DNA of 24,654 nt from a virus, in the UHGV virus genome UHGV-1451352. One strand, given 5' to 3'. The notes below the pieces were generated by a model. That model made no database searches and was not told the DNA's origin. It saw only the letters and a list, made by a program, of their open reading frames with translations. Shown piece after piece: positions 180-22,919 of the stretch. The translations under genes were made by a program, and so were the position numbers. Within the stretch, counting starts at the first letter, position 1. Each line of letters opens with the position of its first letter.

Positions 180-215
180 GTGGATAAAATAATTTTACCC
201 ACCGGATTTTTACCC

Positions 216-1373
216 ATGCTCACCGTTAAGCAGATTGAAGCAGCAAAGCCGAAAGAAAAACCATACCGCCTTCTCGATGGTAATGGCCTGTACCTTTATG
301 TTCCTGTATCCGGGAAAAAGGTATGGCAGCTTCGCTACAAGATTGACGGTAAGGAGAAAATCCTGACCGTCGGAAAATATCCGCTTATGACTTTGCAGGA
401 AGCAAGGGATAAGGCATGGACTGCGAGGAAAGACATCTCGGTTGGCATCGATCCGGTAAAGGCGAAAAAGGCTTCGTCTAACAACAATTCATTTAGTGCG
501 ATTTACAAGGAATGGTACGAGCACAAGAAGCAAGTCTGGTCAGTAGGCTATGCAACTGAACTTGCCAAAATGTTTGATGACGACATTTTACCCATCATCG
601 GCGGTCTTGAGATTCAGGATATTGAGCCGATGCAACTGCTGGAAGTAATCCGCAGATTTGAAGATCGCGGTGCAATGGAGCGAGCCAACAAAGCCCGCAG
701 AAGATGCGGCGAGGTTTTTCGTTACGCTATTGTCACCGGAAGGGCTAAATATAACCCGGCACCTGACCTTGCAGACGCCATGAAAGGATACCGCAAGAAG
801 AACTTCCCGTTCCTTCCAGCAGACCAGATGCCTGCATTCAACAAAGCACTGGCAACATTTTCAGGAAGTATCGTATCGCTCATTGCGACCAAAGTTTTAC
901 GCTACACAGCCCTAAGAACGAAAGAGCTTCGTTCCATGCTATGGAAGAACGTCGATTTTGAAAACAGGATTATCACCATCGACGCCAGTGTGATGAAGGG
1001 ACGCAAAATTCATGTGGTCCCGATGTCAGACCAGGTGGTTGAACTTCTCACTACGCTAAGCTCCATCACCAAACCAGTATCAGAGTTTGTTTTTGCCGGA
1101 CGCAACGATAAGAAGAAGCCAATCTGCGAGAACGCGGTATTGCTTGTGATCAAACAAATCGGCTATGAAGGTCTGGAAAGCGGTCACGGATTCAGGCATG
1201 AATTCAGCACGATTATGAACGAGCACGAATGGCCTGCTGACGCTATTGAAGTGCAGCTGGCACATGCCAACGGCGGATCTGTGCGCGGTATTTACAACCA
1301 TGCTCAGTATCTCGATAAGCGCAGGGAGATGATGCAGTGGTGGGCGGACTGGCTTGATGAAAAGGTGGAGTGA
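216..1373 (+). CDS. int: P4-type tyrosine integrase (IntS-like, 385 aa)
   Basis: ORF 180..1373. N-terminal DUF4102-like region (LTVKQIEAAKPKEKPYRLLDGNGLYLYVPVSGKKVWQLRYKIDG) and C-terminal catalytic region (HGFRHEF ... RGIYNHAQY). Lies immediately 3' of the tRNA fragment. The ATG at 216 (MLTVKQ) gives the family-typical N-terminus; the GTG at 180 is the alternative start. Confidence 0.9.
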   Translation: MLTVKQIEAAKPKEKPYRLLDGNGLYLYVPVSGKKVWQLRYKIDGKEKILTVGKYPLMTLQEARDKAWTARKDISVGIDPVKAKKASSNNNSFSAIYKEWYEHKKQVWSVGYATELAKMFDDDILPIIGGLEIQDIEPMQLLEVIRRFEDRGAMERANKARRRCGEVFRYAIVTGRAKYNPAPDLADAMKGYRKKNFPFLPADQMPAFNKALATFSGSIVSLIATKVLRYTALRTKELRSMLWKNVDFENRIITIDASVMKGRKIHVVPMSDQVVELLTTLSSITKPVSEFVFAGRNDKKKPICENAVLLVIKQIGYEGLESGHGFRHEFSTIMNEHEWPADAIEVQLAHANGGSVRGIYNHAQYLDKRREMMQWWADWLDEKVE

Positions 1374-1450: not shown

Positions 1451-3700
1451 TTAATATGATACAGATATCTCACCTGTTGAGAAGTTCCCTGCGGATCCCT
1501 CTCTACTGCAAAGGGCATATTTTTTATCAACAACATCCCTTGAGTCAGTTGCCACTATCTCATGGCATATATTATTTGCCGACCTATGTACATACGTATT
1601 TACTATCGGCTTAGATGAAGATGAACCCTTAGCTCTCGAACCATCGATAAGACAGTCAGACACTGACATAAATCCTGAAACAAGGTTGTTACTCACATCC
1701 CAATCTATGGCCATTTTGTCAAAACAAACACTGCCAAGCATATATGTGTTTCCACCAGAATAGCCTACAAACCTACGTAATACACCACCATCATGCTTGA
1801 TGTAGCTCCTTGTCATTCCTGATGTGATATTCATATATGCAATATCCATATTGCACTCAATTCCGTAAAGGCAAGATGCATATTCTTGCCTGTATCCAAC
1901 ATAACATACAACTTTACATCCAGTTGATTTAGCTGGAGTCAATTTAATTACAGGAATATCTCTTGTAGATGCATCATGATATGAAATTGCTAACTCAAAT
2001 CTTGCGTCTTTACCATTAAAAGTGCTACCAGTAAAATCTATCAATGACGGCATTTTAAAGTCACGCAAAGGTGATGGCTGTGTTTTAAAGTTATTTTTAA
2101 ATGATAAAATATTGAGTGTTACCTCAGAAGGCCAGTATATATTCGTCTGTACAATTATATTCTTCGGAAGATGTAAAGTGCGCGGCTGGACAGGGTTCCC
2201 GGACGCGATAACATTGTCTGAACGACACAAAATCATATCCACCAAACCGGATGAACCCTCTGGAATACGAACGGATCCACCACGGACTATGAAATCACCT
2301 TTATGTTCACCGTAATCCGTACGTACTCCAAACGGCCCTATGTGAGAATTGATGATCTGTGTGGCCTCGTCGAACGCCCCAGTACCAACCATGACGCCTC
2401 CAGGTATCAGGCAATTATCAACAAGAATCTTTGAGCACCCATAGTGCATGTGAAAGCTATAAAGATTACTGTCTCTCACAACCACATCCCTGCAATAGTT
2501 GCCATCAATAGACCTCCACCCCTTACCCACTTCGCAGCCGATAAAAGTATGTTTAAGGGTGTACTCCATAGCTACGGTATAACGAGAATTATTATCCGTC
2601 TGCGTAATACCCGCACTCGTTAATCTCCAGTTAACTCCGTAGGTGGTAGAGCTACCAAAAATATTAGAATCTGTAGCTGTCATCCCCATGTCATTAAAGT
2701 AAACAACCTCAACATCAACTAAAGAACGTTGGATATCAAAAGCATAGCGTGAAAATTGACCAGTGAAACGCGGCAATACAATTTTATTACGCTTATTTGG
2801 TAGCTTAAATAACGTACAAGTTACGGGGTCGTTGTAAGTATTTTTAAGACTGTAAGCCAATTCCCCTGACTTAGTCATAAAGTTCACTTCACCTTTATAT
2901 TTTGGGCTGAATACACCACCAAGCAACCTATAGAGATCAACCTCTGTTGGACTTATTATTTTGACGATCGAATTACCCCACCCTGTTAAATCCTCAACAC
3001 AAGAAAAAACTGAGGTTAATTCGTTCAATGGGTATGTTGATATATTAACTTCCTTTATATAACTATCATCATCCCTTTCATCTTTATACACAACCTTTCC
3101 GTTTGTTAAGTGGAAAGTACAATTACTCAAATCAAAATCACCATATAGATGTGTTTCTTTATCTATGGTGAAAGTTAGTGGCACGCTTGAGTAGATTTTC
3201 ACTGGATTTCCTTTAAACTCAGCAAAAACAGAATTCAACTGATCGCTATTTCTTTCACCATCAGCAGCAGCTATATCGTATACAGAAAGCCTGACCTCTA
3301 ACCCCCCTATTATTTTGTAACCGTCTGGCGAACTAATTTCATCCATGAACCTTTGCTCAAACTGGTCAGGGTCATACTTCAGCACATTCGGAAAATAGAA
3401 CTGCTGAGAACCGTACGCATCGTATACAGCCATAGAATGGCCTTGCACAGTTACGAATTTGGCAATCTGTCCGTTATATACAGGATACCCGCCAGCGTTA
3501 ATGATGATTGGCTGTGCAACAGGAACGAGAGAACCGTCTTCGTTTTCCACATAAACCTGAATCCGGTTTTCAGGATTTACCGGGTCAGTGTCAATTTTCC
3601 CGATATAAATTTTTCCATTGGCTACGGCTTTAAAAGAACGAGCCATAGTGAAGAGTTGCGAAGGCATCGATACGATCACATTGGCTGTAATGTCTGTCAT
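1451..3700 (-). CDS. Tailspike (P22 gp9-like N-terminal head-binding domain joined to a divergent receptor-binding body), 749 aa
   Basis: The first ~115 aa ([17 protein letters not shown]...[19 protein letters not shown]...[15 protein letters not shown]...NVLKYDPDQ) match the P22 tailspike N-terminal domain as I recall it. The remainder is AT-rich and unrelated to the P22 body. GGAG ribosome-binding site 9 nt upstream of the ATG. Confidence 0.85.
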
Positions 3701-3800: not shown

Positions 3801-4679
3801 TCAGTAGTTATGTACTGAAGGAGGTAATTCTTTATTCTTGAGTCTCATCCATGCGGAAAGATTCGTTGGTCCATCTGGCTCATTAATATCAACATCTCGT
3901 GTGTGGTTTATTAAAACGTCTCTCGCCATTCCGATAACATACGAGAATTCATGACCGTAGTCGTAGCATCTGCCGGAATAGTTCGATTGAATTTGTTTTA
4001 ATGCCGGATACAGTTCGCGGAATAATGCCTGTGAGCGGTTGGCATAATCCCATAACCATACAAGGCTGTTTTCTTCTTTTGCAGAAAGCTCGTTGGTTTT
4101 CTTCTCTTGTTTGCCGATGAACTCACCTTCAAGCACTACCCTGTGGATGTACTCTACGGCCAGCGGGATTTGTTCAATTGAAAGTTCATCAATGCTGTCA
4201 ATACCAAAACGCTGATGAACCATATTGTATGCATCGTCATAGCGAAGTCCTTTCTTTCCTACCAGCATGTTTACTGCATCGCGTAGCGGCGTTCTTTCCT
4301 CAACAGTGGTTTTCTTGCCTTTCACATACTCGCCATGTTTGCGAATTGAAGGTAGAACTTCTGCTGTTACCCACTTGCGGAATTTGTGCGGGACCGAACC
4401 TTTATTGACAGCATCGCGGCAGCGCAGAACCAATGTATACATACCTGATTCGCTAACAATGCTTAGATTCTGCTCACCACCAAGGGTGTAACTTAAAGTT
4501 ACTCCCTTTTCATCGTCATCAAGTGCAGTAAGCGCCTTGCGTGAGTTAGTCAGGGTTAAAGCATCACAAACATCTTTTGCTACAAACCACGGCTCACCGC
4601 ATTTGTTGATGACGCGGATTTCACTGTCGCCGAATTTGAAGATGGTGAAATCGTTTTGTGCCTTTGCTATACTTTTCAT
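3801..4679 (-). CDS. ant: Antirepressor Ant (Bro-N/KilA-type N-terminal domain), ~292 aa
   Basis: ORF 3801..4745. Bro-N-like motif [16 protein letters not shown]. Sits in the P22 immI position downstream of arc. The ATG at 4679 has an AGGAAA ribosome-binding site; the longer frame to 4745 would run up to the arc stop and is unlikely. Confidence 0.8.
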
Positions 4680-4747
4680 GTCAATATTTCCTAATCCGAT
4701 TTGTTGATACCGAAGCCCTGACTGTTCCCGCAGTTGGGGCTTCAACT
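4679..4747 (+). ncRNA. Candidate sar-like antisense RNA covering the ant ribosome-binding site
   Basis: From established P22 biology: a ~68-nt antisense RNA starts at the ant start region and ends near the arc 3' end. Here a TATACT -10-like hexamer sits at 4668-4673 and a GAAGCCC...GGGGCTTC hairpin at ~4711-4742. Endpoints are not verified. Confidence 0.3.
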
Positions 4748-4909
4748 TTACGCGCCAATGCGCCCTTCCTTCTTAAAGCTTTCCATTACTCTCTGATAAA
4801 TCTCAGAGTTAACAGACCGACCATTCTCTTCCGCCACCTTGCGTACCAAATCCAATACTTCTTTAGGCCACCGCAAATTGAACTGCGGCATCTTGCTCAT
4901 TCCTTTCAT
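4748..4909 (-). CDS. arc: Arc repressor (53 aa)
   Basis: [53 protein letters not shown] is essentially the P22 Arc sequence. The listed ORF 4748..4972 has a 21-aa extension that is the translation of the Arc operator itself. GAGGTGA ribosome-binding site before the ATG at 4909. Confidence 0.92.
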
Positions 4910-4925
4910 ATTCACCTCACAATAT

Positions 4926-4942
4926 AGGTCCACGGTGGACCT
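4926..4942. promoter_or_regulatory. Mnt operator (Omnt), 17-bp palindrome
   Basis: Exact palindrome AGGTCCACGGTGGACCT read in the sequence; matches the P22 Mnt operator as I recall it. Positioned at the Pant start site. Confidence 0.85.
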
Positions 4943-4943
4943 A

Positions 4944-4977
4944 TTGAGAATATAGTAGAGTGCTTCTATCATGTCAA
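4944..4977. promoter_or_regulatory. Divergent Pant / Pmnt promoter pair
   Basis: - strand: -35 TTGACA (4977..4972), 17-bp spacer, -10 TATATT (4954..4949), driving arc-ant. + strand: -35 TTGAGA (4944-4949), 17-bp spacer, -10 TATCAT (4967-4972), driving mnt. Confidence 0.7.
4952..4972. promoter_or_regulatory. Arc operator (Oarc)
   Basis: ATAGTAGAGTGCTTCTATCAT read in the sequence; matches the P22 Arc operator as I recall it. Lies between the -35 and -10 of Pant. Confidence 0.85.
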
Positions 4978-4999
4978 TACACTAACTTGGAGTGATGGC

Positions 5000-5251
5000 A
5001 TGGCTAGAGATGATCCGCACTTTAACTTCCGTATGCCTATGGAAGTAAGGGAGAAATTAAAATTCAGGGCGAAGGCGAATGGGAGATCAATGAACTCCGA
5101 GTTGTTACAAATCGTCCAAGATGCTCTATCAAAACCATCGCCTGTGACTGGATATCGCGACGATGCAGAACGACTCGCTGATGAGCAGTCAGAGCTTGTT
5201 AAGAAGATGGTGTTTGATACGCTGAAGTATTTGTACAAAAAACCCACCTGA
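5000..5251 (+). CDS. mnt: Mnt repressor (83 aa)
   Basis: MARDDPHFNFRMPMEVREKLKFRAKANGRSMNSELLQIVQDALSK... is near-identical to P22 Mnt as I recall it. GGAGTG ribosome-binding site upstream. Confidence 0.92.
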   Translation: MARDDPHFNFRMPMEVREKLKFRAKANGRSMNSELLQIVQDALSKPSPVTGYRDDAERLADEQSELVKKMVFDTLKYLYKKPT

Positions 5252-5270
5252 AGGTGGGTCCTATTTATTA
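5237..5270. terminator. Bidirectional intrinsic terminator between the convergent mnt and lipoprotein genes
   Basis: CCCACC-TGAA-GGTGGG hairpin (the mnt stop codon is in the loop), flanked by an A6 run on the + strand (U-run for the - transcript) and a T-rich tract downstream on the + strand. Confidence 0.6.
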
Positions 5271-5687
5271 GTCTTGCTTTGTTGATGGTATAAGAGATGC
5301 GTTTGCCTCTTTTGGCTTCAAGGTATACATCCCACCATTAAAAGGATCTACAGCAAGCCAACCAATTAACCCACCAAACACAAGGTTTCCACCAATATAC
5401 CAACCATTAGCATTGGCTTTGATTGGCAGGGTAACTGGTTCGTACCCATCCTTTTCCATAGTGATCTGGTAGCTCTTTTTGCCAAAATAACTACCATCTG
5501 ACTTGGCAAGAGTTACTCCTTGCGGGGTCTTGCCTTGCGCAACAATCACGCCTGATTCGTCTTTTACTTTAAAGCTCGCACCGGAAGGATTGCTGTTCAC
5601 TTGCACGAGCTGTGTTTCGTCACCAACAATAGTTGCGCACCCAGATAACAATATAGCGCCAGCAACAACGCCGATAATCCTCTTCAT
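5268..5687 (-). CDS. Putative lipoprotein (signal peptide plus lipobox), moron in the sieA-equivalent position
   Basis: ORF 5268..5720. MKRIIGVVAGAILLSGC has a type II signal peptide with an L-S-G-C lipobox. Start taken at the ATG at 5687. GC content is lower than the flanking structural genes. No family recognised. Confidence 0.6.
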   Translation of the reverse strand: MKRIIGVVAGAILLSGCATIVGDETQLVQVNSNPSGASFKVKDESGVIVAQGKTPQGVTLAKSDGSYFGKKSYQITMEKDGYEPVTLPIKANANGWYIGGNLVFGGLIGWLAVDPFNGGMYTLKPKEANASLIPSTKQD

Positions 5688-5805
5688 ATCAATTTCCATA
5701 TTTGAAAAAACCGGAAACATCCTAATGACAAACCATTCAAATGTGAAGTAGGCAAAAGATGTTTACTTTTTTCATGGTATCCTGCTCAAAACTAAGGAGG
5801 TTGGT

Positions 5806-6129
5806 GTGTATACAACAGTTATCGTGATAGCTATCGCACTCATTGTGGTTCAGTACCAACTGGCATCTTTAAAACAAAAGATATCTGACCTCAAGACTGA
5901 GAACGAAGCACTTAAAAACTCAATAAAAGATGAGAAGAACAAACTATCATTCACTATATCTGATATTGAGCAATCCATTGAAATTATTGAGAATAATATT
6001 AACAGACTAAAAAAAGAAGATATTCATGAAATCAATGACAATATCAAGGATTTGAAATCTTGGCTTAGGAATGTAGGACAAATCGCCACATCAACACGAG
6101 ATAAGCTCAATCCATCCATGGATGATTAA
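5806..6129 (+). CDS. Small membrane-anchored coiled-coil protein (107 aa), AT-rich moron
   Basis: GTG start 5 nt after a strong AGGAGG ribosome-binding site. N-terminal hydrophobic helix (TVIVIAIALIVVQY) followed by a K/E-rich heptad-like region. About 30-35 percent GC by eye versus roughly 50 percent in neighbours. On the opposite strand to the late operon. Confidence 0.55.
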   Translation: MYTTVIVIAIALIVVQYQLASLKQKISDLKTENEALKNSIKDEKNKLSFTISDIEQSIEIIENNINRLKKEDIHEINDNIKDLKSWLRNVGQIATSTRDKLNPSMDD

Positions 6130-8256
6130 TTACTCCTGTGCTATTCCGCTTAGCGACGCTACAATGCCAGCCCTCGCTAAGCGATTGAACTCTTCGTTTC
6201 CAACTGCATCACGTATTGCTTTTACGGCGGCTTTATTTGCCATAAATCTGCGTTCCGCCGCCGCTAATGCTTCTTTACTTCCGCCAGCTCTTACTGCTTT
6301 CGTGGCTTCCTGAACTGCTTTCTCTATCGCATATCGACCGCTACGCGTGGTGGCAATTTTAGATACAGCACCTTTTAACCCGGCGCCAACTAAAGCACCT
6401 GCGGCCGCGCCTGCAATGCCCCCACCTGCTCCACCAACAATGGCACCCGACGTTGAGTTTGCAATTGCATTTAATACTGTTGAGGTAACGTTGGATAAAC
6501 CAGCGTCAAGATCACGTAGAACATTGGCTGTTCTCCCTGTTCTTTCAATATACTGCTGAGGCTTCACTGCCGCTCTTGCAAGAGTGCCATATGCATCAGC
6601 AATTCTTCCAAGTTCTGAGGAATATCTGCTAATGGCTTTTACATTTTGTGGGGTAAGTATCCCTGCGATATGGTTAATTCCTGCTGCATCAGATTTGCCA
6701 CCACGTACACCATGCGAGATAGCATCCTGCAACATTGATGATATAGCAGGAACACGCTCTGATTCTGGCAGCGCGCGGATCATAGAATGGAATCCAGCAG
6801 GACCATTAAGACCTTTAGCTGACGATGATTGAAGAGATTTTACTCCATTCGTAATCAGTGCATCTGTTGCCAAATCACGCCCAAAAACAGACTCTGCACT
6901 CTCTTGTGCGGATAGCCTCGCTTTAGACAGATCATTAGCTTTTTGCCAGTCATCAAGAAATCCGCCGTTTTCCGCCATTGTGCGCATATCATCAGTAATT
7001 GCCCGGCGTATTTCCCCTGCTCTCCTTGCCGCATTTGCCTCTCCGCTACGCTTATATTTTTGCTCAGCATCAGCAAATTTCGCTCTCCATGCTTTCATGC
7101 CATCAAATGTTACTCCACCTTGATTGTTTGCCTGAACAAACTGTTTCATTTCAGGAGTAAGCGGTATGCCAGCAGATCGCTCTGCCTGAATAACGGCATT
7201 ACCATTTAGCATTCTTGCTTTTTGATTTGGCATTGTTGACCGCACGTCATCCCATGCCGCGCGCTCGGCATCCTTCATCTGATCAAGATTTTGAAGAATC
7301 CTTTGTTTTATAGCCGCACTTTTTTCTGATGCCGTTCCAGATGCGGCCCCAAATTCATCAAGGTTTCGACTTAACTTTGATGATATTTCGTTAAATGCTG
7401 CCTGATGGGCATCCTGAACAATTCCTGGTGTTGATGCCAATGCGCCTTCGGCTTGTGCAATTCCACGACTTCCAGATCGCATTCCTGGTGTTAATGCGTT
7501 TATATCAATTCCAGCAGACTCAGCCGCTTTTGCTACATCTTCGGACACATTAGCGGCCTGACTGGCAATTGACTGACGCCCAGCACCTGACTTTGCCATC
7601 CTGGAAACATCATTAGCAGAATTCAGTGCTGCACCACCAAGAGCCTGTGAAACTCTTGGCGCAATAACGCGCCCGACACCTGAAAGAACGCCTTGAGCAC
7701 CAATATTGATACCACCGTTAATGGCAGCATTTTGTGCAAAGTCGCCCTCCTGATTTGCAGCATCAGCAAGAGAACCTGCAATCATGTTTCCTGCGGAACC
7801 GATATCTCCAGCGAGCTTTGCTGTCGCTCCAACAGCTTTTGCCGCTGTGCCAATTGGCAGGAGATACCCACCAATTGTTTCACCGGCTTGTGCGTAAGGG
7901 TCTGTCGGTCGATCGACAGGGCGATAAACATCATCCAAAACCTTGGGGCCACCAAGCCCCTGACTGATTGCATTAATCAGACTTGCGCCACCCTGCAATA
8001 CGTCAAATGGTATGTTTACCAGACCACGACCAGCCTGTTCTGCAATTTGCCCTGCACTTTGACCACCAGTGAGCCAATCGCCAGCTTGTTGCATCAATGA
8101 TGGTTCTTCCCGTGTTGGTGCATTATTGGCCTGATTAACTGTTTGTTGCTGAACAGCCTGACCAGCAAAATACTCATCAATGGCGGTGCCAATATCTTCG
8201 GTGCTCGTACCATCAGGAAAGGTAAATGTCTTACCGTTTGCAGTTACTTTCATCAT
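6130..8256 (-). CDS. Ejection (injection) protein, P22 gp16-like, 708 aa
   Basis: Position and order match P22 (7-20-16). Gly/Ala-rich low-complexity protein. N-terminus [16 protein letters not shown] matches my recollection of gp16. Confidence 0.8.
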
Positions 8257-9632
8257 TCCACCGTAAATTGAATGCCTGATTTTGACGTGTAGCTACCTCC
8301 TGCTGATTGCTGAGTAGGCGGCTGTTGCATTGATGATTTCTTCCCTCCATTACCGACATTAACGTTATATTGCTGGTTGTAATTGTCGGTATATTGCTGA
8401 ATGTCGCGCATTGATTGTTGCAGTGCTTCAGGGCTTGAGAAATCAACCTGTGGCATACCTTGAAAATACATCTTTGCTTCTGCAACGGTGTTGATACCGG
8501 ATGCCCCCATGTCTCTGGCTGCTGCAATGCCCTGATTCTGCATCTTTCCTTGGATTCGCTGTGCAGCGTTGTATAGTTTCCTCTGATCACCACCAGATGC
8601 ACGGCTACGAATATCTGCACCAAGAGCAGGAGAACCTGAAGAGCCTGTAATGCCAGTCATGAAGCCAAGATCGTCAATTGATGCACCAGAAATTGCATCA
8701 AGATCTTTCTTCATTGCGTAATTCTGCGCGCTTGCTGCCGATGTAGCCGGAGCGGCAATAGAGCCAGCAGGGACGCGAACCATATTCCCCTCGTTGTCGA
8801 TACCTTCGTAGAACGCATTAGCCCCAGCGCCGTGAAGCTTCCCGCCTACCGTTACAGTTCTGCCATCTGCTAACTGAACTGTACGCTCATTATTCCCAAC
8901 CGACCCTTTCATTGATGCTCTCTGCATCGATAAATCCTGACCGCGCATCGTGATATTCTGACCACGCGCTGTTAGCGCCTCGCCAGCCTGATTGCTGCGG
9001 ATTGTCTCTGCCAGTCTGCCTCGGTCAATTTCACGACCAGCCATCTTGTCCTGAACAGCAAACGCCTTTTCTGGTCCAAGCGCACCGAGAGACATAGTAG
9101 TCAGCATGTGTGATAGCTGCTCTGGATTCTGGATACCTGTCTGAATCATCCAGTCAGCATTCGCACCCACACGATTTAACCTGTCCTTGTTGTCAGTAAT
9201 GAATTTACTGTAGGCTTCCGGTCCCTGAGAAAGAGCGACGTTAGCCCTCATGGCTAAATCGCCCATATCGTTGCGTTGCTGATCATTAAGACCGGAAAAC
9301 GCCTGTTGTGCCTGTGCAACAAACGCTGGATTTTCCTGGGCAAACTTAAATAGTCCCGATGGATCACCAGAAGCCCATGCATCAGCGTGAACCTTATTGA
9401 ACGCACTAATAGCTTTCTGTTGCTGTTCCTGATTGTAAATATCAGCAACTCCAGCCAGACCACGTAACGCGGTCAGGCCAACGTTATTTGCACCTGAGCG
9501 AGCCAGTTCATTGTTTTCGCGGATCAGACCAAGCGTTGCGTTAATGTCGCTTGCCTTTGGCGCATTCTCATTTTGCGTACCGATGCCAGCCAGAAAACCA
9601 CCAGAATTAATACCCTGTTGCCACGTAGCCAT
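8253..9632 (-). CDS. Ejection protein, P22 gp20-like, 459 aa
   Basis: Synteny between gp7 and gp16; size close to P22 gp20; 4-nt overlap with the downstream gene. Confidence 0.8.
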
Positions 9633-9641
9633 GATTACCCC

Positions 9642-10334
9642 TTAAAACAACGAGCCAAGCAGACCAAGACCGCCGCCGATCGCAGCCCCCCACGGAGTTG
9701 ATGAACCAATTAATTTCGCAAGTCCAGCCCCAGCAATAGCACCAGACGCACCTCCGCCAATAGCAGATTGCATTGCTGATGGTCTGTTGGCATTTGCCGC
9801 TGCAAGAGCCGCACTTTGCTGCGAAATCTGACTCATGTTGTTGGCATATGTCTGCCCGGCGTTTGCCTGACCTTGCAGTGCGCCAAGACCAATGTTTGCC
9901 AGATTCTGGTAGTTGTTCATCTGACCAGACAGCCACTGCTGACCAAGCGTTGGTGCGATTGTTGCTAACTGATTACCGGTTGCAGTGGAACCCAATCCAC
10001 CTGTTGCTTCCGCTGCCGCCAGACTCTGATAGCGAGCCTGACCAGCAAGATCTTTGTACTGCTGAGAGTTGTAATACTGGTTAAGTGCCTGACCTTGCCC
10101 TTCCAGAGACGATAAGTTCTCGAGGCTGCCGACATACATATCAGCCAGAGGAGTAAACGGCTTCAGGTTGTTCATGATGGTGTTGAACTGCTGATTTTGC
10201 AGGTCTGCGGCATACTTCTGGGCTTCTGCTGCATACTTTGCGCTTTTATCAGAACTGCCACCTTTCCCGCCTTTTTCAGGGCAATAAGGTTCCTCGCCGC
10301 GCAGTTTTCTGCCCAGCTTAAATGCATATAACAT
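9642..10334 (-). CDS. Ejection protein, P22 gp7-like, 230 aa
   Basis: Synteny and size (P22 gp7 is ~229 aa); Gln/Ala-rich with a C-terminal Gly-rich hydrophobic segment. Confidence 0.8.
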   Translation of the reverse strand: MLYAFKLGRKLRGEEPYCPEKGGKGGSSDKSAKYAAEAQKYAADLQNQQFNTIMNNLKPFTPLADMYVGSLENLSSLEGQGQALNQYYNSQQYKDLAGQARYQSLAAAEATGGLGSTATGNQLATIAPTLGQQWLSGQMNNYQNLANIGLGALQGQANAGQTYANNMSQISQQSAALAAANANRPSAMQSAIGGGASGAIAGAGLAKLIGSSTPWGAAIGGGLGLLGSLF

Positions 10335-10336
10335 GG

Positions 10337-10792
10337 CTATCTCCCGTGATTCAGAAATTCGATTAGTTCTTCGCGTGTAGCACTGTAAAATGTCACGTCA
10401 TCCACGCCTTTGAAGTATTTCTTGATGGTTCCTACACGATTAAGGCCAATCATTGCGCAGTACATCTGCCCGTGGCGGAATTTGCGCGCAGCGAACGATG
10501 TGACACACTGAACAGTGGTGTTAGTCAGAATGTATCGCCAGAACTCCAGCCCGATTTCCTTGCTGAAGCCACGAACCTCTGGCAGGTACATGGCGTGGCA
10601 ATCGAATGTAAGCGGCTGAATCTCCTGATAGTAAACAATGCCGCCGAACTGCCCGTGCACGTTCACCTCAAAGTAACGGCAATCAGGTTTGTAGTCGTAT
10701 CCATCACCGTTGTTGCTTCCGGCAATAATGTCAGGGTGATTTCCGACTGCTTCGATCAGGTCGATGTTTCGCGTTGGTTTGAATGTAATCAT
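10337..10792 (-). CDS. P22 gp14-like protein (head completion or ejection-associated), 151 aa
   Basis: Synteny between the tail needle and gp7. Start is translationally coupled to the gp26 stop. Confidence 0.7.
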   Translation of the reverse strand: MITFKPTRNIDLIEAVGNHPDIIAGSNNGDGYDYKPDCRYFEVNVHGQFGGIVYYQEIQPLTFDCHAMYLPEVRGFSKEIGLEFWRYILTNTTVQCVTSFAARKFRHGQMYCAMIGLNRVGTIKKYFKGVDDVTFYSATREELIEFLNHGR

Positions 10793-11493
10793 CAGTCAAT
10801 CAACCCATGAGTCCGTAATGCATCTTCCAGAGCTTTGATACGCTGCCGCGCCTGCTGCAATCCTGTAGCCATAGCCGACACCTCAGACCGTGTGTATGTG
10901 GCACTTACCGTGTATGTCTGGTTAGCGTTGAATGAGCCGCGAAGAGCCGTACCTGTAGCCGCTGTCCACCCTGTCTGACGAGCACCAATAACCTTGGTGC
11001 CGCCGACCGAATAGGATGTTGTTACATTGAGGGGAGATGCCAGCGATTGTGTTGCAGTGGCTGTTTTCGATACATAGTCGTCCTGTAATGCAGAAATGTT
11101 GCTCTCAGCAGTCGTAACCCGGCCATCAAGAGCGCTGACGTCAGCCTGTAAAGTGACTATTTCTCCTTCAGCCGTGGTTAGTCTGACATCCAGCGCTGCA
11201 ATTGCCGCAGTATTCGCAGCAATACGGATTTCATGGTCATCTACTTCAATGCGGAGCTGACGAATTCTTTCTTCGTGATCGACCAGAATCACATCCTGCT
11301 CATCGTTCCTGACTTGTGCGTCATAAGCACCATGTCCGGCCTCGTTGGCCTTGTTCGCCACGTTACCAACATCAGCACCCTGTGCAATAACGTACAGCAG
11401 ATATGACTGCGAGAAGATATTGCGTGGAAGGATTGATGTATCGAGCCGCGTCGCCTGCACAATAACAGGGGTGTTGAGATTCGAATCAGCCAT
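10792..11493 (-). CDS. Tail needle (P22 gp26-like), 233 aa
   Basis: [37 protein letters not shown] ... ALRTHGLID aligns with P22 gp26 as I recall it; central coiled-coil heptads. Confidence 0.9.
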
Positions 11494-22445: not shown

Positions 22446-22919
22446 TCACTTAAGACACTGCTCTTTGATGTAGTCCTGCATGCCGCGAATCATTTTGTCA
22501 GCGGTTGCGATTCCGTCCCGGTGATCGAAATAATTCCGTCGAGCGTCTGGAGTAAGTTCGGGGGCTCCTGCATCATCCACGCCGGTGGAGGAGGTGGCTT
22601 TTGGCACTCCAGGGCAGGTTGCGGCGATGCGCAGCCGTTTAGCGCCAGAATCGACATCACGACGCAAATCGTTAATGGTCTTTTTCGCATCGGACAATTC
22701 CTTCGTGTATTTGGCATCCAGTGCAGCGACATCACGCTGGCGGGTCTGCATGTCTTTAATGGTGGCGGTCGCCAGGAGGAGTTTCTCAGTGGCCTTATCG
22801 CGCTGGTCTCTGTAAGTGATGGCGTTGTCGCGGTAGTGGTTCACGAAGAAAGCCAGTGCGCCGATTAACGCCAGCACCAGCAACTGCAGCCAGTAACGCT
22901 TAACCAGTGCGCTAATCAT
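22446..22919 (-). CDS. rz: i-spanin Rz (P22 gp15-like), 157 aa
   Basis: N-terminal transmembrane segment then a charged coiled-coil periplasmic domain. Follows lysozyme with a 4-nt overlap. Carries an embedded Rz1 frame. Confidence 0.85.
22490..22690 (-). CDS. rz1: o-spanin Rz1 embedded in the +1 frame of Rz (66 aa lipoprotein)
   Basis: ORF 22490..22735. From the internal ATG: [20 protein letters not shown]... with a lipobox Cys and the PPPPPAW proline run, as in lambda Rz1. Confidence 0.75.

What the first reader, a model, noticed from the sequence alone, without database searches (positions are those of the whole stretch)
5268..6129. Two small moron genes wedged between the ejection genes and immI (the sieA-equivalent slot)
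Between the gp16 stop (6130) and mnt there are two genes unrelated to virion assembly. One is a 139-aa lipoprotein (signal peptide and LSGC lipobox) on the - strand with its own bidirectional terminator. The other is a 107-aa membrane-anchored coiled-coil protein on the + strand with a strong AGGAGG ribosome-binding site and conspicuously low GC. Opposite orientation to the late operon, private regulatory signals and atypical composition mark them as independently expressed lysogenic cargo. In P22 this slot holds the superinfection-exclusion gene sieA, so both are candidates for exclusion or abortive-infection functions acting at the envelope. I do not recognise either family.
Basis: partly seen in the sequence, partly recalled or inferred. 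Interest (0 to 1): 0.6.

Follow-up and report, generated by a model that had tools for sequence, protein, structure and literature searches.

The report
Two prophage envelope-protein cargo cassettes
Two small accessory genes of a P22-like prophage are real: one is a membrane protein sitting in the same expression slot as the known phage-exclusion gene sieA, the other an outer-membrane lipoprotein that hops between phages, and neither has a tested function.

Summary
Window 5268-5687 (-) encodes a 139-aa lipoprotein. Window 5806-6129 (+) encodes a 107-aa protein with one transmembrane segment followed by one long helix. Both lie between mnt and gene 16 of a P22-like prophage. The region is 97.7% identical to Salmonella phage epsilon34 genes 15 and 14, published in 2008 as 'ant moron' genes of unknown function; gene 14 is an hkcB homologue.

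New here:
- hkcB, not the lipoprotein, is the true sieA equivalent. It shares P22 sieA's 48-nt leader with 2 mismatches, its orientation, and its convergent position against gene 16.
- That leader precedes at least 13 unrelated cargo families in viral contigs. Eleven have a clear hydrophobic segment, and one is SieA itself.
- The lipoprotein is a separate gene-plus-terminator cassette, with a promoter-like site upstream. It sits on the late-operon strand, where P22 has hkcC and orf59a.
- Homologues of the lipoprotein sit at several sites in siphovirus tail clusters, including the HK97 gene-15 moron slot. Others are ordinary chromosomal genes in many Gammaproteobacteria.
- The two genes assort independently: both occur together in 10 of 5,426 E. 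coli genomes.

An exclusion function is plausible, more so for hkcB, but untested. No known defence or Pfam family matches either protein.

The parts
5242..5259 (.). GC-rich hairpin terminator. It overlaps the mnt stop codon (5249-5251). On the - strand it is followed by U6 and ends the lipoprotein transcript.
   Evidence: 7 pairs, 5 GC. (-14.5 kcal/mol on the - strand, -12 on the + strand). The P22 match ends at 5259. Equivalent hairpins follow the homologous gene in E. coli and Proteus siphovirus prophages.
5268..5687 (-). 139-aa lipoprotein, equivalent to epsilon34 gene 15 and PHROG 6823. The mature protein is 123 aa: a transthyretin/PEGA-like beta-sandwich followed by an invariant Gly-rich C-terminal motif.
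5637..5687 (-). Signal peptide plus lipobox (MKRIIGVVAGAILLSG|C). Ala at +2 predicts sorting to the outer membrane.
   Evidence: Read directly from the sequence. Cys17 and Ala18 are invariant in 61 homologues. The sorting prediction rests on the +2 rule (established knowledge) and was not tested.
5313..5408 (-). Most conserved part of the lipoprotein, residues 94-125: NGWYIGGNLVFGGLIGWLAVDPFNGGMYTLKP.
   Evidence: invariant and near-invariant columns. Low model confidence here (pLDDT 52-67). KD19 is about 1.3, below the usual transmembrane threshold.
5719..5747 (-). Sigma-70-like promoter candidate for the lipoprotein (TTCACA, 17 nt, TAGGAT).
   Evidence: 9 of 12 matches, not above chance. The hexamers and their spacing are kept in phage Gally although the spacer has diverged.
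5737..5775 (-). 12-codon remnant (MKKVNIFCLLHI*) of the 5' end of hkcC. It marks one joint of the replacement that brought in the lipoprotein cassette.
   Evidence: P22 hkcC starts MKKVNIGNVPK....
5761..5808 (+). Conserved sieA-type leader. It contains TGGTATCCT (5775-5783, resembling an extended -10), AAGGAGG (5794-5800) and the GTG start (5806-5808).
   Evidence: 2 mismatches in 48 nt against the sequence upstream of P22 sieA. The 21-nt core precedes 13 unrelated ORF families. It recurs on its own in other E. coli genomes.
5806..6129 (+). 107-aa hkcB-family protein, equivalent to epsilon34 gene 14 and PHROG 5962. It has an N-terminal transmembrane segment (residues about 2-22), a continuous helix to residue 101, and a conserved C-terminal tail W..NVGQIATSTRDK.NPS.D.
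   Evidence: (E 1.4e-58).
6130..8256 (-). Gene 16 (ejection protein), the fixed right-hand border of the cassette. Its stop codon abuts the hkcB stop (TAA|TTA).
   Evidence: gp16 is convergent and directly downstream in 62 of 62 hkcB loci. The gap is 0 nt in 20 of 20 loci.
6147..6183 (+). 10-bp-stem hairpin inside the 3' end of gene 16, 18 nt after the hkcB stop. It may form the 3' end of the hkcB transcript.
   Evidence: -19.3 kcal/mol, z -3.5. The arms are not conserved in HK620, so its role is uncertain.
5000..5251 (+). mnt, the left-hand border. The immI region (mnt, arc, sar, ant) is complete.
   Evidence: Arc and Repressor_Mnt domains. (sar RNA at 4681-4747, 71.6 bits).

Best explanation
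The interval holds two independent accessory ('moron') cassettes of a P22-like prophage. Each encodes a small envelope protein.

(A) hkcB, 5806-6129 (+). This single-pass inner-membrane protein with one long helix occupies the same expression cassette as P22 sieA. It has the same 48-nt leader, the same strand, and the same convergent position against gene 16. That cassette is a swap site carrying many unrelated small membrane or exported proteins. I infer that hkcB is expressed from the prophage as sieA is. Its most likely role is as an alternative superinfection-exclusion determinant that interferes with DNA delivery by P22-like phages at the inner membrane. In all three transmembrane-plus-coiled-coil families of this slot, the N-terminal side of the membrane segment is acidic or neutral and the C-terminal side is rich in Lys and Arg. 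By the positive-inside rule the helical domain is therefore probably cytoplasmic.

(B) The lipoprotein, 5268-5687 (-). This is a gene-plus-terminator cassette with a promoter-like site upstream, derived from a large family of chromosomal gammaproteobacterial lipoproteins. It replaced hkcC and orf59a in this phage lineage. Homologues have entered tail and DNA-delivery gene clusters of siphovirus prophages at several sites, always co-oriented with the late genes. It is predicted to be anchored in the outer membrane. It most likely alters the envelope, either blocking incoming phages from the periplasmic side as Cor and Llp do, or acting as a host-fitness factor.

Shown: the anatomy, the homologies, the cassette boundaries, the distribution and the selection. 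Inferred: expression, location, topology and function.
For: Identity of the region:
- 97.7% identical over 1,692 nt to epsilon34 genes 13-18.
- Described as the 'ant moron' with genes 14 and 15 of unknown function (PMC2629481).

hkcB as the sieA allele:
- In P22 the order is mnt(+), orf59a(+), sieA(+), then gene 16(-).
- The leader is shared: 46 of 48 nt, including TGGTATCCT, AAGGAGG and GTG.
- HK620 hkcB carries about 100 nt of the P22 sequence upstream of sieA.
- 85 bp upstream of sieA, with the putative PsieA promoter, were enough for exclusion when placed at an ectopic site (PMC10883804).
- 62 of 62 hkcB loci lie against gene 16, and none of them carries sieA.
- The leader precedes 13 unrelated cargo families. 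One is SieA, and 11 of the 13 have a strongly hydrophobic segment.
- dN/dS is 0.27-0.29, and the C-terminal motif is kept despite synonymous changes.

Lipoprotein as a mobile cassette:
- Homologues of 68-71% identity lie between the tail chaperone and tape-measure genes in E. coli and Proteus siphovirus prophages. That is the slot of the HK97 gene-15 exclusion moron (PMC3594210).
- Other insertion sites occur between TMP and M, between K and I, and after I.
- A terminator follows the gene in every context.
- 74 of 80 IMG/VR loci are at least 96% identical and lie in the P22-like slot, with varied neighbours.
- dN/dS is 0.011 between the E. coli and Salmonella copies.
- Chromosomal copies with no phage genes nearby occur in Pantoea, Photorhabdus and Pasteurellaceae.
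- The family has 5,106 clusters at 50% identity.

Independence of the two genes:
- Both occur together in 10 of 5,426 E. coli genomes, while the lipoprotein occurs in 126.
- The same lipoprotein (99% identical) is paired with a 60%-identical hkcB in Salmonella.
Against: - There is no functional evidence of any kind.
- PADLOC has no match to the lipoprotein and only coiled-coil noise for hkcB.
- hkcB shows no similarity to SieA (E 0.047 over 18 residues) and has one transmembrane segment against at least three in SieA.
- No consensus sigma-70 promoter was found upstream of hkcB by the scan. The window shares only the proximal 45 of the 85 bp used for sieA, so promoter identity is not established.
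- The lipoprotein's promoter-like site is at chance level.
- Widespread chromosomal homologues suggest a housekeeping envelope role that may have nothing to do with phages.
- HK620, which carries hkcB, has never been reported to exclude other phages through it.
- Topology and membrane sorting were inferred by rule, not predicted with dedicated tools.
Confidence: 0.5

Rival explanations
1. The lipoprotein is a lysogenic-conversion or host-fitness factor in the manner of lambda Bor or Lom, affecting envelope robustness, serum or stress resistance, or colonisation. It would not be an anti-phage protein. The phage copy would simply supply a function that other Gammaproteobacteria encode on the chromosome.
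For: - The family is large and mostly chromosomal: 5,106 clusters at 50% identity.
- Phage-free neighbourhoods occur in Pantoea, Photorhabdus and Pasteurellaceae.
- Purifying selection is extreme (dN/dS 0.011), as expected for a protein with a conserved cellular partner.
- E. coli has no chromosomal copy detectable by DNA similarity: the gene occurs in 126 of 5,426 genomes. A prophage copy would therefore add a new function.
- There is no PADLOC match.
Against: - In phages it sits repeatedly beside DNA-delivery genes (gene 16, or the tape-measure gene), including the slot of a proven exclusion moron.
- The neighbouring position in the P22-like slot is filled by alternative envelope proteins, one of which is SieA.
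- None of this excludes a fitness role.
Confidence: 0.3
2. The two genes form one two-part system that spans the envelope: an inner-membrane coiled-coil protein plus an outer-membrane lipoprotein, built like a spanin. Together they would bridge the periplasm to block the ejection-protein conduit or to act in lysis.
For: - The genes are adjacent and divergent, 118 bp apart.
- One is predicted to sit in the inner membrane and the other in the outer membrane.
- There are weak matches to Rz-like spanin PHROGs (E about 1e-3).
- The pair recurs in epsilon34 and in a Salmonella prophage.
- A Leclercia prophage has hkcB next to a different lipoprotein.
Against: - Both occur together in only 10 of 5,426 E. 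coli genomes, while each is far commoner alone.
- Only about a fifth of the hkcB loci also carry the lipoprotein.
- In IMG/VR the lipoprotein is paired with at least six different neighbours, or with none.
- It occurs alone in siphovirus prophages.
- The prophage has its own Rz gene in the lysis cassette (22446-22919, PF03245, E 6.6e-40).
- The charge distribution predicts that the hkcB helix is cytoplasmic (inference).
- The Rz matches are coiled-coil noise, alongside SMC and Rad50 matches.
Confidence: 0.08
3. hkcB serves the phage's own gene 16 or late operon, not the host. It could be a membrane partner or chaperone for gp16 during assembly or ejection. Alternatively its convergent transcription could tune gene 16 and tailspike expression, with the protein itself secondary.
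For: - There is zero spacing between the hkcB and gene 16 stop codons in 20 of 20 loci.
- A continuous block of conserved DNA spans the 3' ends of both genes.
- A hairpin lies just inside gene 16.
- The 'ant moron' has been proposed to modulate read-through into the tailspike gene (PMC2629481).
Against: - Most P22-like phages lack hkcB and carry unrelated genes or nothing at this position.
- hkcB alleles recombine freely with different gp16 types, from 72% to 99% identity.
- Its orientation is opposite to the late operon.
- The protein is under purifying selection, with synonymous changes in the conserved tail.
Confidence: 0.07
4. hkcB is an abortive-infection or toxic membrane effector that kills or arrests the infected cell. 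It would not block DNA entry.
For: Small single-pass membrane proteins with coiled coils are common effectors. The slot also carries very small proteins with two or more transmembrane segments (62, 75 and 116 aa) that resemble holin-like effectors.
Against: There is no sensor partner, no toxin or antitoxin signature, and no PADLOC match. The only characterised occupant of the slot, SieA, blocks DNA entry and does not kill (PMC10883804).
Confidence: 0.1

Closest known systems
Salmonella phage epsilon34 genes 14 and 15, part of the 'ant moron' (Villafane et al. 2008, PMC2629481)
   Same: Same two genes in the same order and orientation, between mnt and the gene 16 homologue. Nucleotide identity is 97.7%. 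The proteins are 99.1% and 97.8% identical.
   Different: Nothing of substance; this is the same element in an E. coli-type prophage. The paper left both functions unknown. It did not note the shared sieA leader or the siphovirus copies of gene 15.
P22 SieA, an inner-membrane superinfection-exclusion protein (Leavitt et al. 2024, PMC10883804)
   Same: hkcB shares the genomic cassette: the same 48-nt leader and GTG start, the same strand, and the same convergent position against gene 16. Both are small proteins predicted to lie in the inner membrane.
   Different: There is no sequence similarity. hkcB has one hydrophobic segment and a long helix; SieA has at least three hydrophobic segments. 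hkcB lacks the FxRYPxEAxxFNK motif. Exclusion by hkcB is untested.
HK620 hkcB (Clark et al. 2001; PHROG 5962)
   Same: Homologous: about 51-56% identity, the same length class, the same C-terminal motif, and the same position against gene 16.
   Different: The window carries the epsilon34-type allele, with a different sequence in the N-terminal transmembrane segment. Neither allele has a known function.
HK97 gp15 moron (Cumby et al. 2012; review PMC3594210)
   Same: Homologues of the window lipoprotein occupy the same slot, between the tail-chaperone and tape-measure genes, in HK97-like E. coli prophages. Both are small envelope proteins carried as self-contained insertions.
   Different: gp15 is an inner-membrane protein unrelated in sequence. 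The window protein is a predicted outer-membrane lipoprotein. A shared slot does not mean a shared function.
Cor (phi80, N15, HK022) and T5 Llp, which are exclusion lipoproteins
   Same: Small phage-encoded lipoproteins predicted to sit in the outer membrane, able to act on incoming phages from the periplasmic side.
   Different: The only similarity is in the signal peptide (PHROG 1119 E 0.0034 over residues 1-20; NCBIfam Cor E 0.19). The fold and size differ. There is no evidence for FhuA or any other receptor as a target.
PEGA / transthyretin-like beta-sandwich domains (Pfam PF08308, the transthyretin clan)
   Different: The match is below the Pfam gathering score (17.6 against 20.8 bits). 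The invariant Gly-rich C-terminal motif, the most conserved part of the protein, is not part of any described domain.

Membership tests
hkcB family (HK620 hkcB / epsilon34 gp14 / PHROG 5962) | Full-length sequence homology | tested here: met
   PHROG 5962 E 1.4e-58 over residues 1-107. 99.1% identical to epsilon34 gp14 and 56.5% to HK620 hkcB. 21 clusters at 90% identity; the full-length calls among them are 107 aa.
hkcB family (HK620 hkcB / epsilon34 gp14 / PHROG 5962) | Position: convergent with the gene 16 homologue and directly against it | tested here: met
   62 of 62 IMG/VR loci. The gap is 0 nt in 20 of 20 loci. In the window the stop codons are at 6127-6129 and 6130-6132.
SieA (P22 superinfection exclusion A, types A-C) | Sequence homology, including the FxRYPxEAxxFNK motif | tested here: not met
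   BLASTP E 0.047 over 18 residues. The motif is absent from the hkcB sequence.
SieA (P22 superinfection exclusion A, types A-C) | Inner-membrane protein with several transmembrane segments | tested here: not met
   hkcB has one hydrophobic segment (residues 1-23). SieA has three or more by the same measure.
SieA (P22 superinfection exclusion A, types A-C) | Locus: between genes 16 and 9, behind the sieA leader, opposite to the late operon | tested here: met
   46 of 48 nt of the leader are identical to P22, with the same strand and the same neighbour.
SieA (P22 superinfection exclusion A, types A-C) | Blocks DNA injection by P22-like phages; escape mutations map to genes 16 and 20 | not testable with these tools
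   Needs plating, K+ efflux and escape-mutant experiments like those in PMC10883804.
Moron (Juhala/Hendrix sense) | Present in some genomes and absent from otherwise syntenic relatives | tested here: met
   P22, CUS-3, SEN22 and Gally differ at exactly these positions. 13 cargo families occupy the hkcB position. The lipoprotein is inserted at several sites in siphovirus tail clusters.
Moron (Juhala/Hendrix sense) | Own terminator | tested here: met
   Lipoprotein: a hairpin plus U-tract lies directly downstream in four independent contexts. hkcB: only a hairpin inside gene 16, and it is not conserved in HK620.
Moron (Juhala/Hendrix sense) | Own promoter, with expression from the repressed prophage | tested here: inconclusive
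   Lipoprotein: TTCACA-17-TAGGAT is at chance level but is kept in Gally, and the Proteus copy has TTGTAA-16-TATCAT. hkcB: it shares the proximal 45 nt of the 85 bp that carry the putative PsieA promoter. No expression data were available.
Moron (Juhala/Hendrix sense) | Composition unlike the flanking genes | tested here: met
   hkcB is 33.3% GC against 48.1% for gene 16 and the window. The lipoprotein is 44.8% GC and is not atypical. The feature is therefore met for hkcB only.
Bacterial lipoprotein (signal peptidase II substrate) | Positively charged N-terminal region, hydrophobic region, lipobox L-[AS]-[GA]-C | tested here: met
   MKRIIGVVAGAILLSG|C. Cys17 is invariant and Gly16 is at least 90% conserved in 61 homologues. 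Lipidation itself cannot be tested here.
PEGA domain (PF08308) | Pfam HMM match above the gathering score | tested here: not met
   17.6 bits against a cut-off of 20.8, E 0.0037. Ten distant relatives gave no PEGA match at E 0.01 or better. The fold is compatible with the clan.
Cor / Llp exclusion lipoproteins | Sequence homology beyond the signal peptide | tested here: not met
   PHROG 1119 matches residues 1-20 only (E 0.0034). NCBIfam Cor scores 11.7 bits against a cut-off of 31.
Spanin pair (Rz/Rz1) | Homology to Rz, and location in the lysis cassette with an embedded or adjacent lipoprotein gene | tested here: not met
   Only coiled-coil-level matches to Rz PHROGs (E about 1e-3). A bona fide Rz lies at 22446-22919, next to the lysozyme gene. 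The two genes assort independently.
Known anti-phage defence systems (PADLOC-DB 2.0) | A match to any defence protein model | tested here: not met
   The lipoprotein matches no family. hkcB matches only coiled-coil regions of LmuB, JetC and PbeC, at E 6e-4 or weaker. Note that SieA itself is also absent from PADLOC.

The most novel reading that the evidence does not exclude
The conserved sieA leader together with the end of gene 16 defines a swappable 'exclusion cassette' in P22-like prophages. At least 13 unrelated small envelope proteins, hkcB among them, would each block DNA delivery with a different specificity towards ejection-protein variants. That would make the site an arms-race hotspot comparable to the P2/P4 defence hotspots, but made up of single small membrane proteins. 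Separately, the lipoprotein would be a broad exclusion factor acting at the outer membrane or in the periplasm. Its presence in both podovirus and siphovirus prophages would then point to a host target rather than a phage-specific one.
Probability: 0.25. Interest if true: 0.7.

Novelty: new member of a known kind. Interest (0 to 1): 0.4.

Why it matters
SieA is the only characterised occupant of this slot, and only about a third of sequenced P22-like phages carry it (PMC10883804). If hkcB and the other leader-linked cargo genes are alternative exclusion determinants, they would explain how the remaining P22-like prophages defend their hosts against relatives. They would also provide a panel of small, unrelated proteins for probing how the gp7/gp20/gp16 conduit crosses the envelope. 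The lipoprotein belongs to a very large bacterial family with no Pfam model and no known function. A phenotype for the phage copy would give that family its first functional handle. If neither gene has a phage-related phenotype, the finding is ordinary prophage cargo that has been catalogued since 2008.

Tried and rejected
- Pfam, NCBIfam and PADLOC scans of both proteins gave nothing above threshold. hkcB gave only coiled-coil noise, and the lipoprotein only a sub-threshold PEGA match.
- A PDB sequence search with the lipoprotein profile found nothing meaningful.
- The hkcB model is a single helix, so no fold search was attempted.
- The spanin idea was rejected because the prophage has its own Rz and the two genes assort independently.
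- The obligate two-gene system idea was rejected on co-occurrence counts.
- I tested whether the 134-aa ORF next to hkcB in Leclercia is the same lipoprotein. It is not (19% identity), although it is also a lipoprotein.
- I tested whether the third transmembrane-plus-coiled-coil family (109 aa, MLEIVVLALG...) is homologous to hkcB. The result was inconclusive (hhalign probability 71% over 27 columns).
- Literature searches for hkcB, 'ant moron' and PEGA lipoproteins found no functional work. The primary HK97 gp15 paper was not held, so I cited the review instead.
- The cargo families of the slot were scanned against Pfam and PADLOC, with no matches.
Full report
**What is in the window**

The window is a P22-like (Lederbergvirus-type) prophage with its late operon on the - strand.
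- An integrase lies at 180-1373 (+).
- The tailspike lies at 1451-3700 (-), with a P22-type head-binding domain.
- ant, arc, sar RNA and mnt follow at 3801-5251.
- The ejection-protein genes 16, 20 and 7 lie at 6130-10334 (-).
- Further on are Rz (22446-22919), lysozyme and a Q-type antiterminator.

**Check of the observation**

The lipoprotein features are in the sequence. The N-terminus reads MKRIIGVVAGAILLSG|C. Cys17 and Ala18 are invariant across 61 homologues, all of which begin at the equivalent MK(K/R) start.

The + strand ORF has a GTG start, an AAGGAGG Shine-Dalgarno sequence 5 nt upstream, and one strongly hydrophobic segment at residues 1-23. AlphaFold2 models residues 2-101 as one continuous helix (pLDDT 80). 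Its GC content is 33.3%, against 48.1% for gene 16 and for the window. The lipoprotein gene, at 44.8%, is not atypical.

The hairpin at 5242-5259 is a good intrinsic terminator on the - strand (-14.5 kcal/mol, then U6). It is weaker on the + strand.

Both genes evolve as proteins. dN/dS is 0.011 for the lipoprotein between this copy and a Salmonella copy, with dS 0.275. It is 0.27-0.29 for the 107-aa gene.

Three points in the finding need correction.
- The lipoprotein is on the same strand as the late operon, not the opposite one.
- The terminator overlaps the mnt stop codon and lies in the block shared with P22, whose match ends at 5259. It is therefore not private to the lipoprotein.
- The promoter-like site upstream of the lipoprotein is no more than chance gives (4 sites found, 4.0 expected).

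**Already described**

The region 4709-6400 is 97.7% identical to Salmonella phage epsilon34. There the two ORFs are genes 15 (lipoprotein) and 14. The epsilon34 genome paper calls the region between gene 16 and the tailspike gene the 'ant moron'. It states that genes 14 and 15 are of unknown function and that 14 is a homologue of HK620 hkcB. It notes ten types of this region in sixteen genomes (PMC2629481).

Both proteins have PHROG families of unknown function: 5962 (E 1.4e-58) and 6823 (E 6e-86). Among isolated phages, hkcB occurs in epsilon34, CUS-3, SEN22, HK620 and vB_EcoP-611R6. The lipoprotein occurs in epsilon34, Gally and vB_EcoP-720R6. Every copy is annotated as hypothetical.

**hkcB is the sieA allele**

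In P22 the order is mnt(+), orf59a(+), sieA(+), then gene 16(-). The sequence upstream of P22 sieA is GTTAACTTTTTTCATGGTATCCTGCACAAAACTAAGGAGGTTGGTGTG. Window 5761-5808 reads GTTTACTTTTTTCATGGTATCCTGCTCAAAACTAAGGAGGTTGGTGTG. That is two mismatches in 48 nt, ending at the GTG start of each gene. HK620 hkcB has about 100 nt of the P22 sieA upstream region.

Leavitt et al. showed that sieA with 85 bp of upstream DNA, containing the putative PsieA promoter, is sufficient for exclusion from an ectopic site (PMC10883804). The shared segment contains TGGTATCCT, which resembles an extended -10 element. Whether the whole promoter is shared is not established. The scan found no consensus sigma-70 site upstream of hkcB.

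In 62 of 62 IMG/VR loci with an hkcB homologue, the gene is convergent with gene 16 and directly against it, and none of these loci carries sieA. Where measured exactly, the gap between the two stop codons is 0 nt in 20 of 20 loci.

**The slot is a swap site for small envelope proteins**

I scanned IMG/VR for the 21-nt core of the leader. The ORFs starting at the GTG fall into 13 families with no detectable similarity to each other.
- hkcB: 20 loci.
- A 129-aa protein with a signal peptide: 16.
- A second transmembrane-plus-coiled-coil protein of 109 aa: 14.
- A 62-aa protein with two transmembrane segments: 12.
- SieA: 11.
- Eight further families make up the rest.

Eleven of the 13 have a hydrophobic segment with KD17 of at least 1.6. 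A twelfth has a signal-peptide-like N-terminus, and one looks soluble. Almost all are convergent with gene 16 within 0-71 nt. None matches Pfam or PADLOC, and SieA itself is not in PADLOC either.

The upstream neighbour (lipoprotein, hkcC or neither) combines freely with the cargo type. This is the strongest argument, though a positional one, that hkcB is prophage-expressed and acts at the envelope. It is not evidence that hkcB excludes phages.

**hkcB anatomy**

The two hkcB alleles are about 50% identical: the epsilon34 type, carried here, and the HK620 type. They share the tail W-L-x-N-V-G-x-I-A-T-S-T-R-D-K-x-N-P-S-x-D. In a Leclercia copy this tail is kept despite five synonymous changes, so the constraint is on the protein.

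In both hkcB alleles and in the third transmembrane-plus-coiled-coil family, the N-terminal flank of the membrane segment is neutral or acidic and the C-terminal flank carries two or three Lys or Arg residues. By the positive-inside rule the helical domain would be cytoplasmic. This is my inference; no topology predictor was available.

hkcB shows no similarity to SieA. It has one hydrophobic segment against at least three in SieA.

**The lipoprotein is a separate, mobile cassette**

P22 homology stops at 5259 and resumes at 5761. The 501 bp between replace P22's orf59a and hkcC. A 12-codon remnant of the hkcC start (MKKVNI...) survives at 5775-5737 (-).

The same lipoprotein, at 96% identity or more, is found in 74 IMG/VR contigs in this slot. 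There it is combined with hkcB, with four other genes, or with nothing between it and gene 16.

Copies of 68-81% identity lie in siphovirus prophages of E. coli, Proteus and other Enterobacterales. The sites include the gap between the tail chaperone genes and the tape-measure gene, between the tape-measure gene and M, between K and I, and after I. In every case the gene is co-oriented with the tail genes and followed by its own hairpin terminator. The chaperone/tape-measure site is where HK97 carries its gene-15 exclusion moron (PMC3594210).

More distant relatives (54-66% identity) in Pantoea, Photorhabdus and Pasteurellaceae have ordinary chromosomal neighbours. By my reading of the N-terminal sequences these include a permease, a speG-like acetyltransferase, murJ, accC and panF. 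No phage markers lie within 7 kb.

A profile search finds 5,106 clusters at 50% identity. Ten representatives gave no Pfam family except an OmpA barrel fused to one of them. E. coli has no detectable chromosomal copy, and the gene is present in 126 of 5,426 complete genomes.

**Lipoprotein structure**

AlphaFold2 (pLDDT 78.8, pTM 0.69) gives a confident beta-sandwich for residues 25-93 and two confident terminal strands. Between them lies a low-confidence segment, residues 95-120, which is the most conserved part of the sequence: NGWYIGGN.VFGGLIGWL.VDPFNGGMY.

**Are the two genes a system?**

No. Both occur together in 10 of 5,426 E. coli genomes. A Salmonella prophage has a 99%-identical lipoprotein beside a 60%-identical hkcB, and a Leclercia prophage has hkcB beside an unrelated lipoprotein. 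The prophage has its own Rz gene.

**Most likely mechanism**

For hkcB I commit to this reading: a prophage-expressed inner-membrane protein that interferes with DNA delivery by P22-like phages. It would be analogous in role, but not in structure, to SieA. I put the probability at about 0.4-0.45.

For the lipoprotein I favour an outer-membrane lipoprotein facing the periplasm that changes the envelope. Phage exclusion (about 0.35) and host fitness (about 0.3) are nearly level.

Because the lipoprotein lies on the late strand, with only gene 16 and the antisense hkcB upstream of it, late antiterminated transcription should also express it during lytic growth. This is an inference. The epsilon34 paper notes that late transcription reads through this region into the tailspike gene.

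**Verdict**

The finding is real and correctly located. Its interpretation is reasonable but partly mis-assigned, and the genes have been catalogued since 2001 and 2008. The added value is threefold: the nucleotide-level link of hkcB to the sieA cassette, the polymorphism of that cassette, and the promiscuity and chromosomal origin of the lipoprotein. Function remains untested.

Noticed in passing
window 5761-5808; also L240 3687-3734 and E. coli genomes H63-H67: The leader of about 48 nt (..CATGGTATCCTGC.CAAAACTAAGGAGGTTGGTGTG) behaves as a portable junction. It precedes 13 unrelated ORF families. On the opposite strand it also carries the ribosome-binding site and ATG of hkcC-type genes. Its 34-nt core occurs at 100% identity in E. 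coli genomes that have neither window gene, once under a feature annotated 'replication protein'.
   Followed up: partly
L240 3322-3700 (-), the P22 hkcC gene; remnant at window 5737-5775 (-): P22/HK620 hkcC (121 aa, function unknown) contains an HExxH motif (IAHECAHM), suggesting a small metallopeptidase. It has no Pfam match. The window keeps only its first 6 codons.
   Followed up: partly
window 6147-6183 (+), inside the 3' end of gene 16: A 10-bp-stem hairpin (CGCTTAGCG / CGCTAAGCG arms; -19.3 kcal/mol, z -3.5) lies 18 nt after the hkcB stop. It is conserved in four of five aligned loci but broken in HK620. It could be the 3' end of the hkcB transcript, or a by-product of the gp16 C-terminal peptide sequence.
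   Followed up: partly
window 4681-4747 (+): sar antisense RNA (Rfam RF00262, 71.6 bits, E 3e-14). The immI region (mnt, arc, sar, ant) therefore looks complete and P22-like.
   Followed up: yes
L005, L007 and L009 at 10261-11424; L008 at 10270-11343: The E. coli HK97-like prophages that carry the lipoprotein homologue also carry a porin gene (PF00267/PF13609) inserted between the tail genes M and L. This is a second envelope-protein moron in the same tail cluster.
   Followed up: no
L014 5514-5918 (-), a Leclercia prophage; L004 3640-4155 (+), phage Gally: Two further lipoproteins, unrelated to the window one, occupy this region in other P22-like phages. One is a 134-aa protein at the window lipoprotein's position, with a lipobox-like N-terminus (...LLTTGGC). 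The other is a 171-aa protein (lipobox LLAGC) between the lipoprotein gene and gene 16, on the sieA strand. The region repeatedly collects lipoproteins.
   Followed up: partly
proteins P0121-P0126: Database gene calls of 131-179 aa for hkcB are probably wrong starts. Their N-terminal extensions read through the leader (..KTKEVGV-YTTV..). The window has a stop codon upstream, and the remaining homologues are 107 aa apart from one shorter 88-aa call.
   Followed up: partly
window 1451-3700 (-): The tailspike has a P22-type head-binding domain (residues 1-113, PF09008). The rest has no Pfam match and very low GC (31-41% around 3000-3400), which suggests a recently acquired receptor-binding module. 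The integrase gene lies directly beyond it.
   Followed up: no
L011 6001-6411, a Proteus prophage: One Proteus variant carries the lipoprotein next to a CI-like repressor (HTH_3 plus Peptidase_S24) and a Bro-N gene, rather than directly before the tape-measure gene. This is another independent context for the cassette.
   Followed up: no
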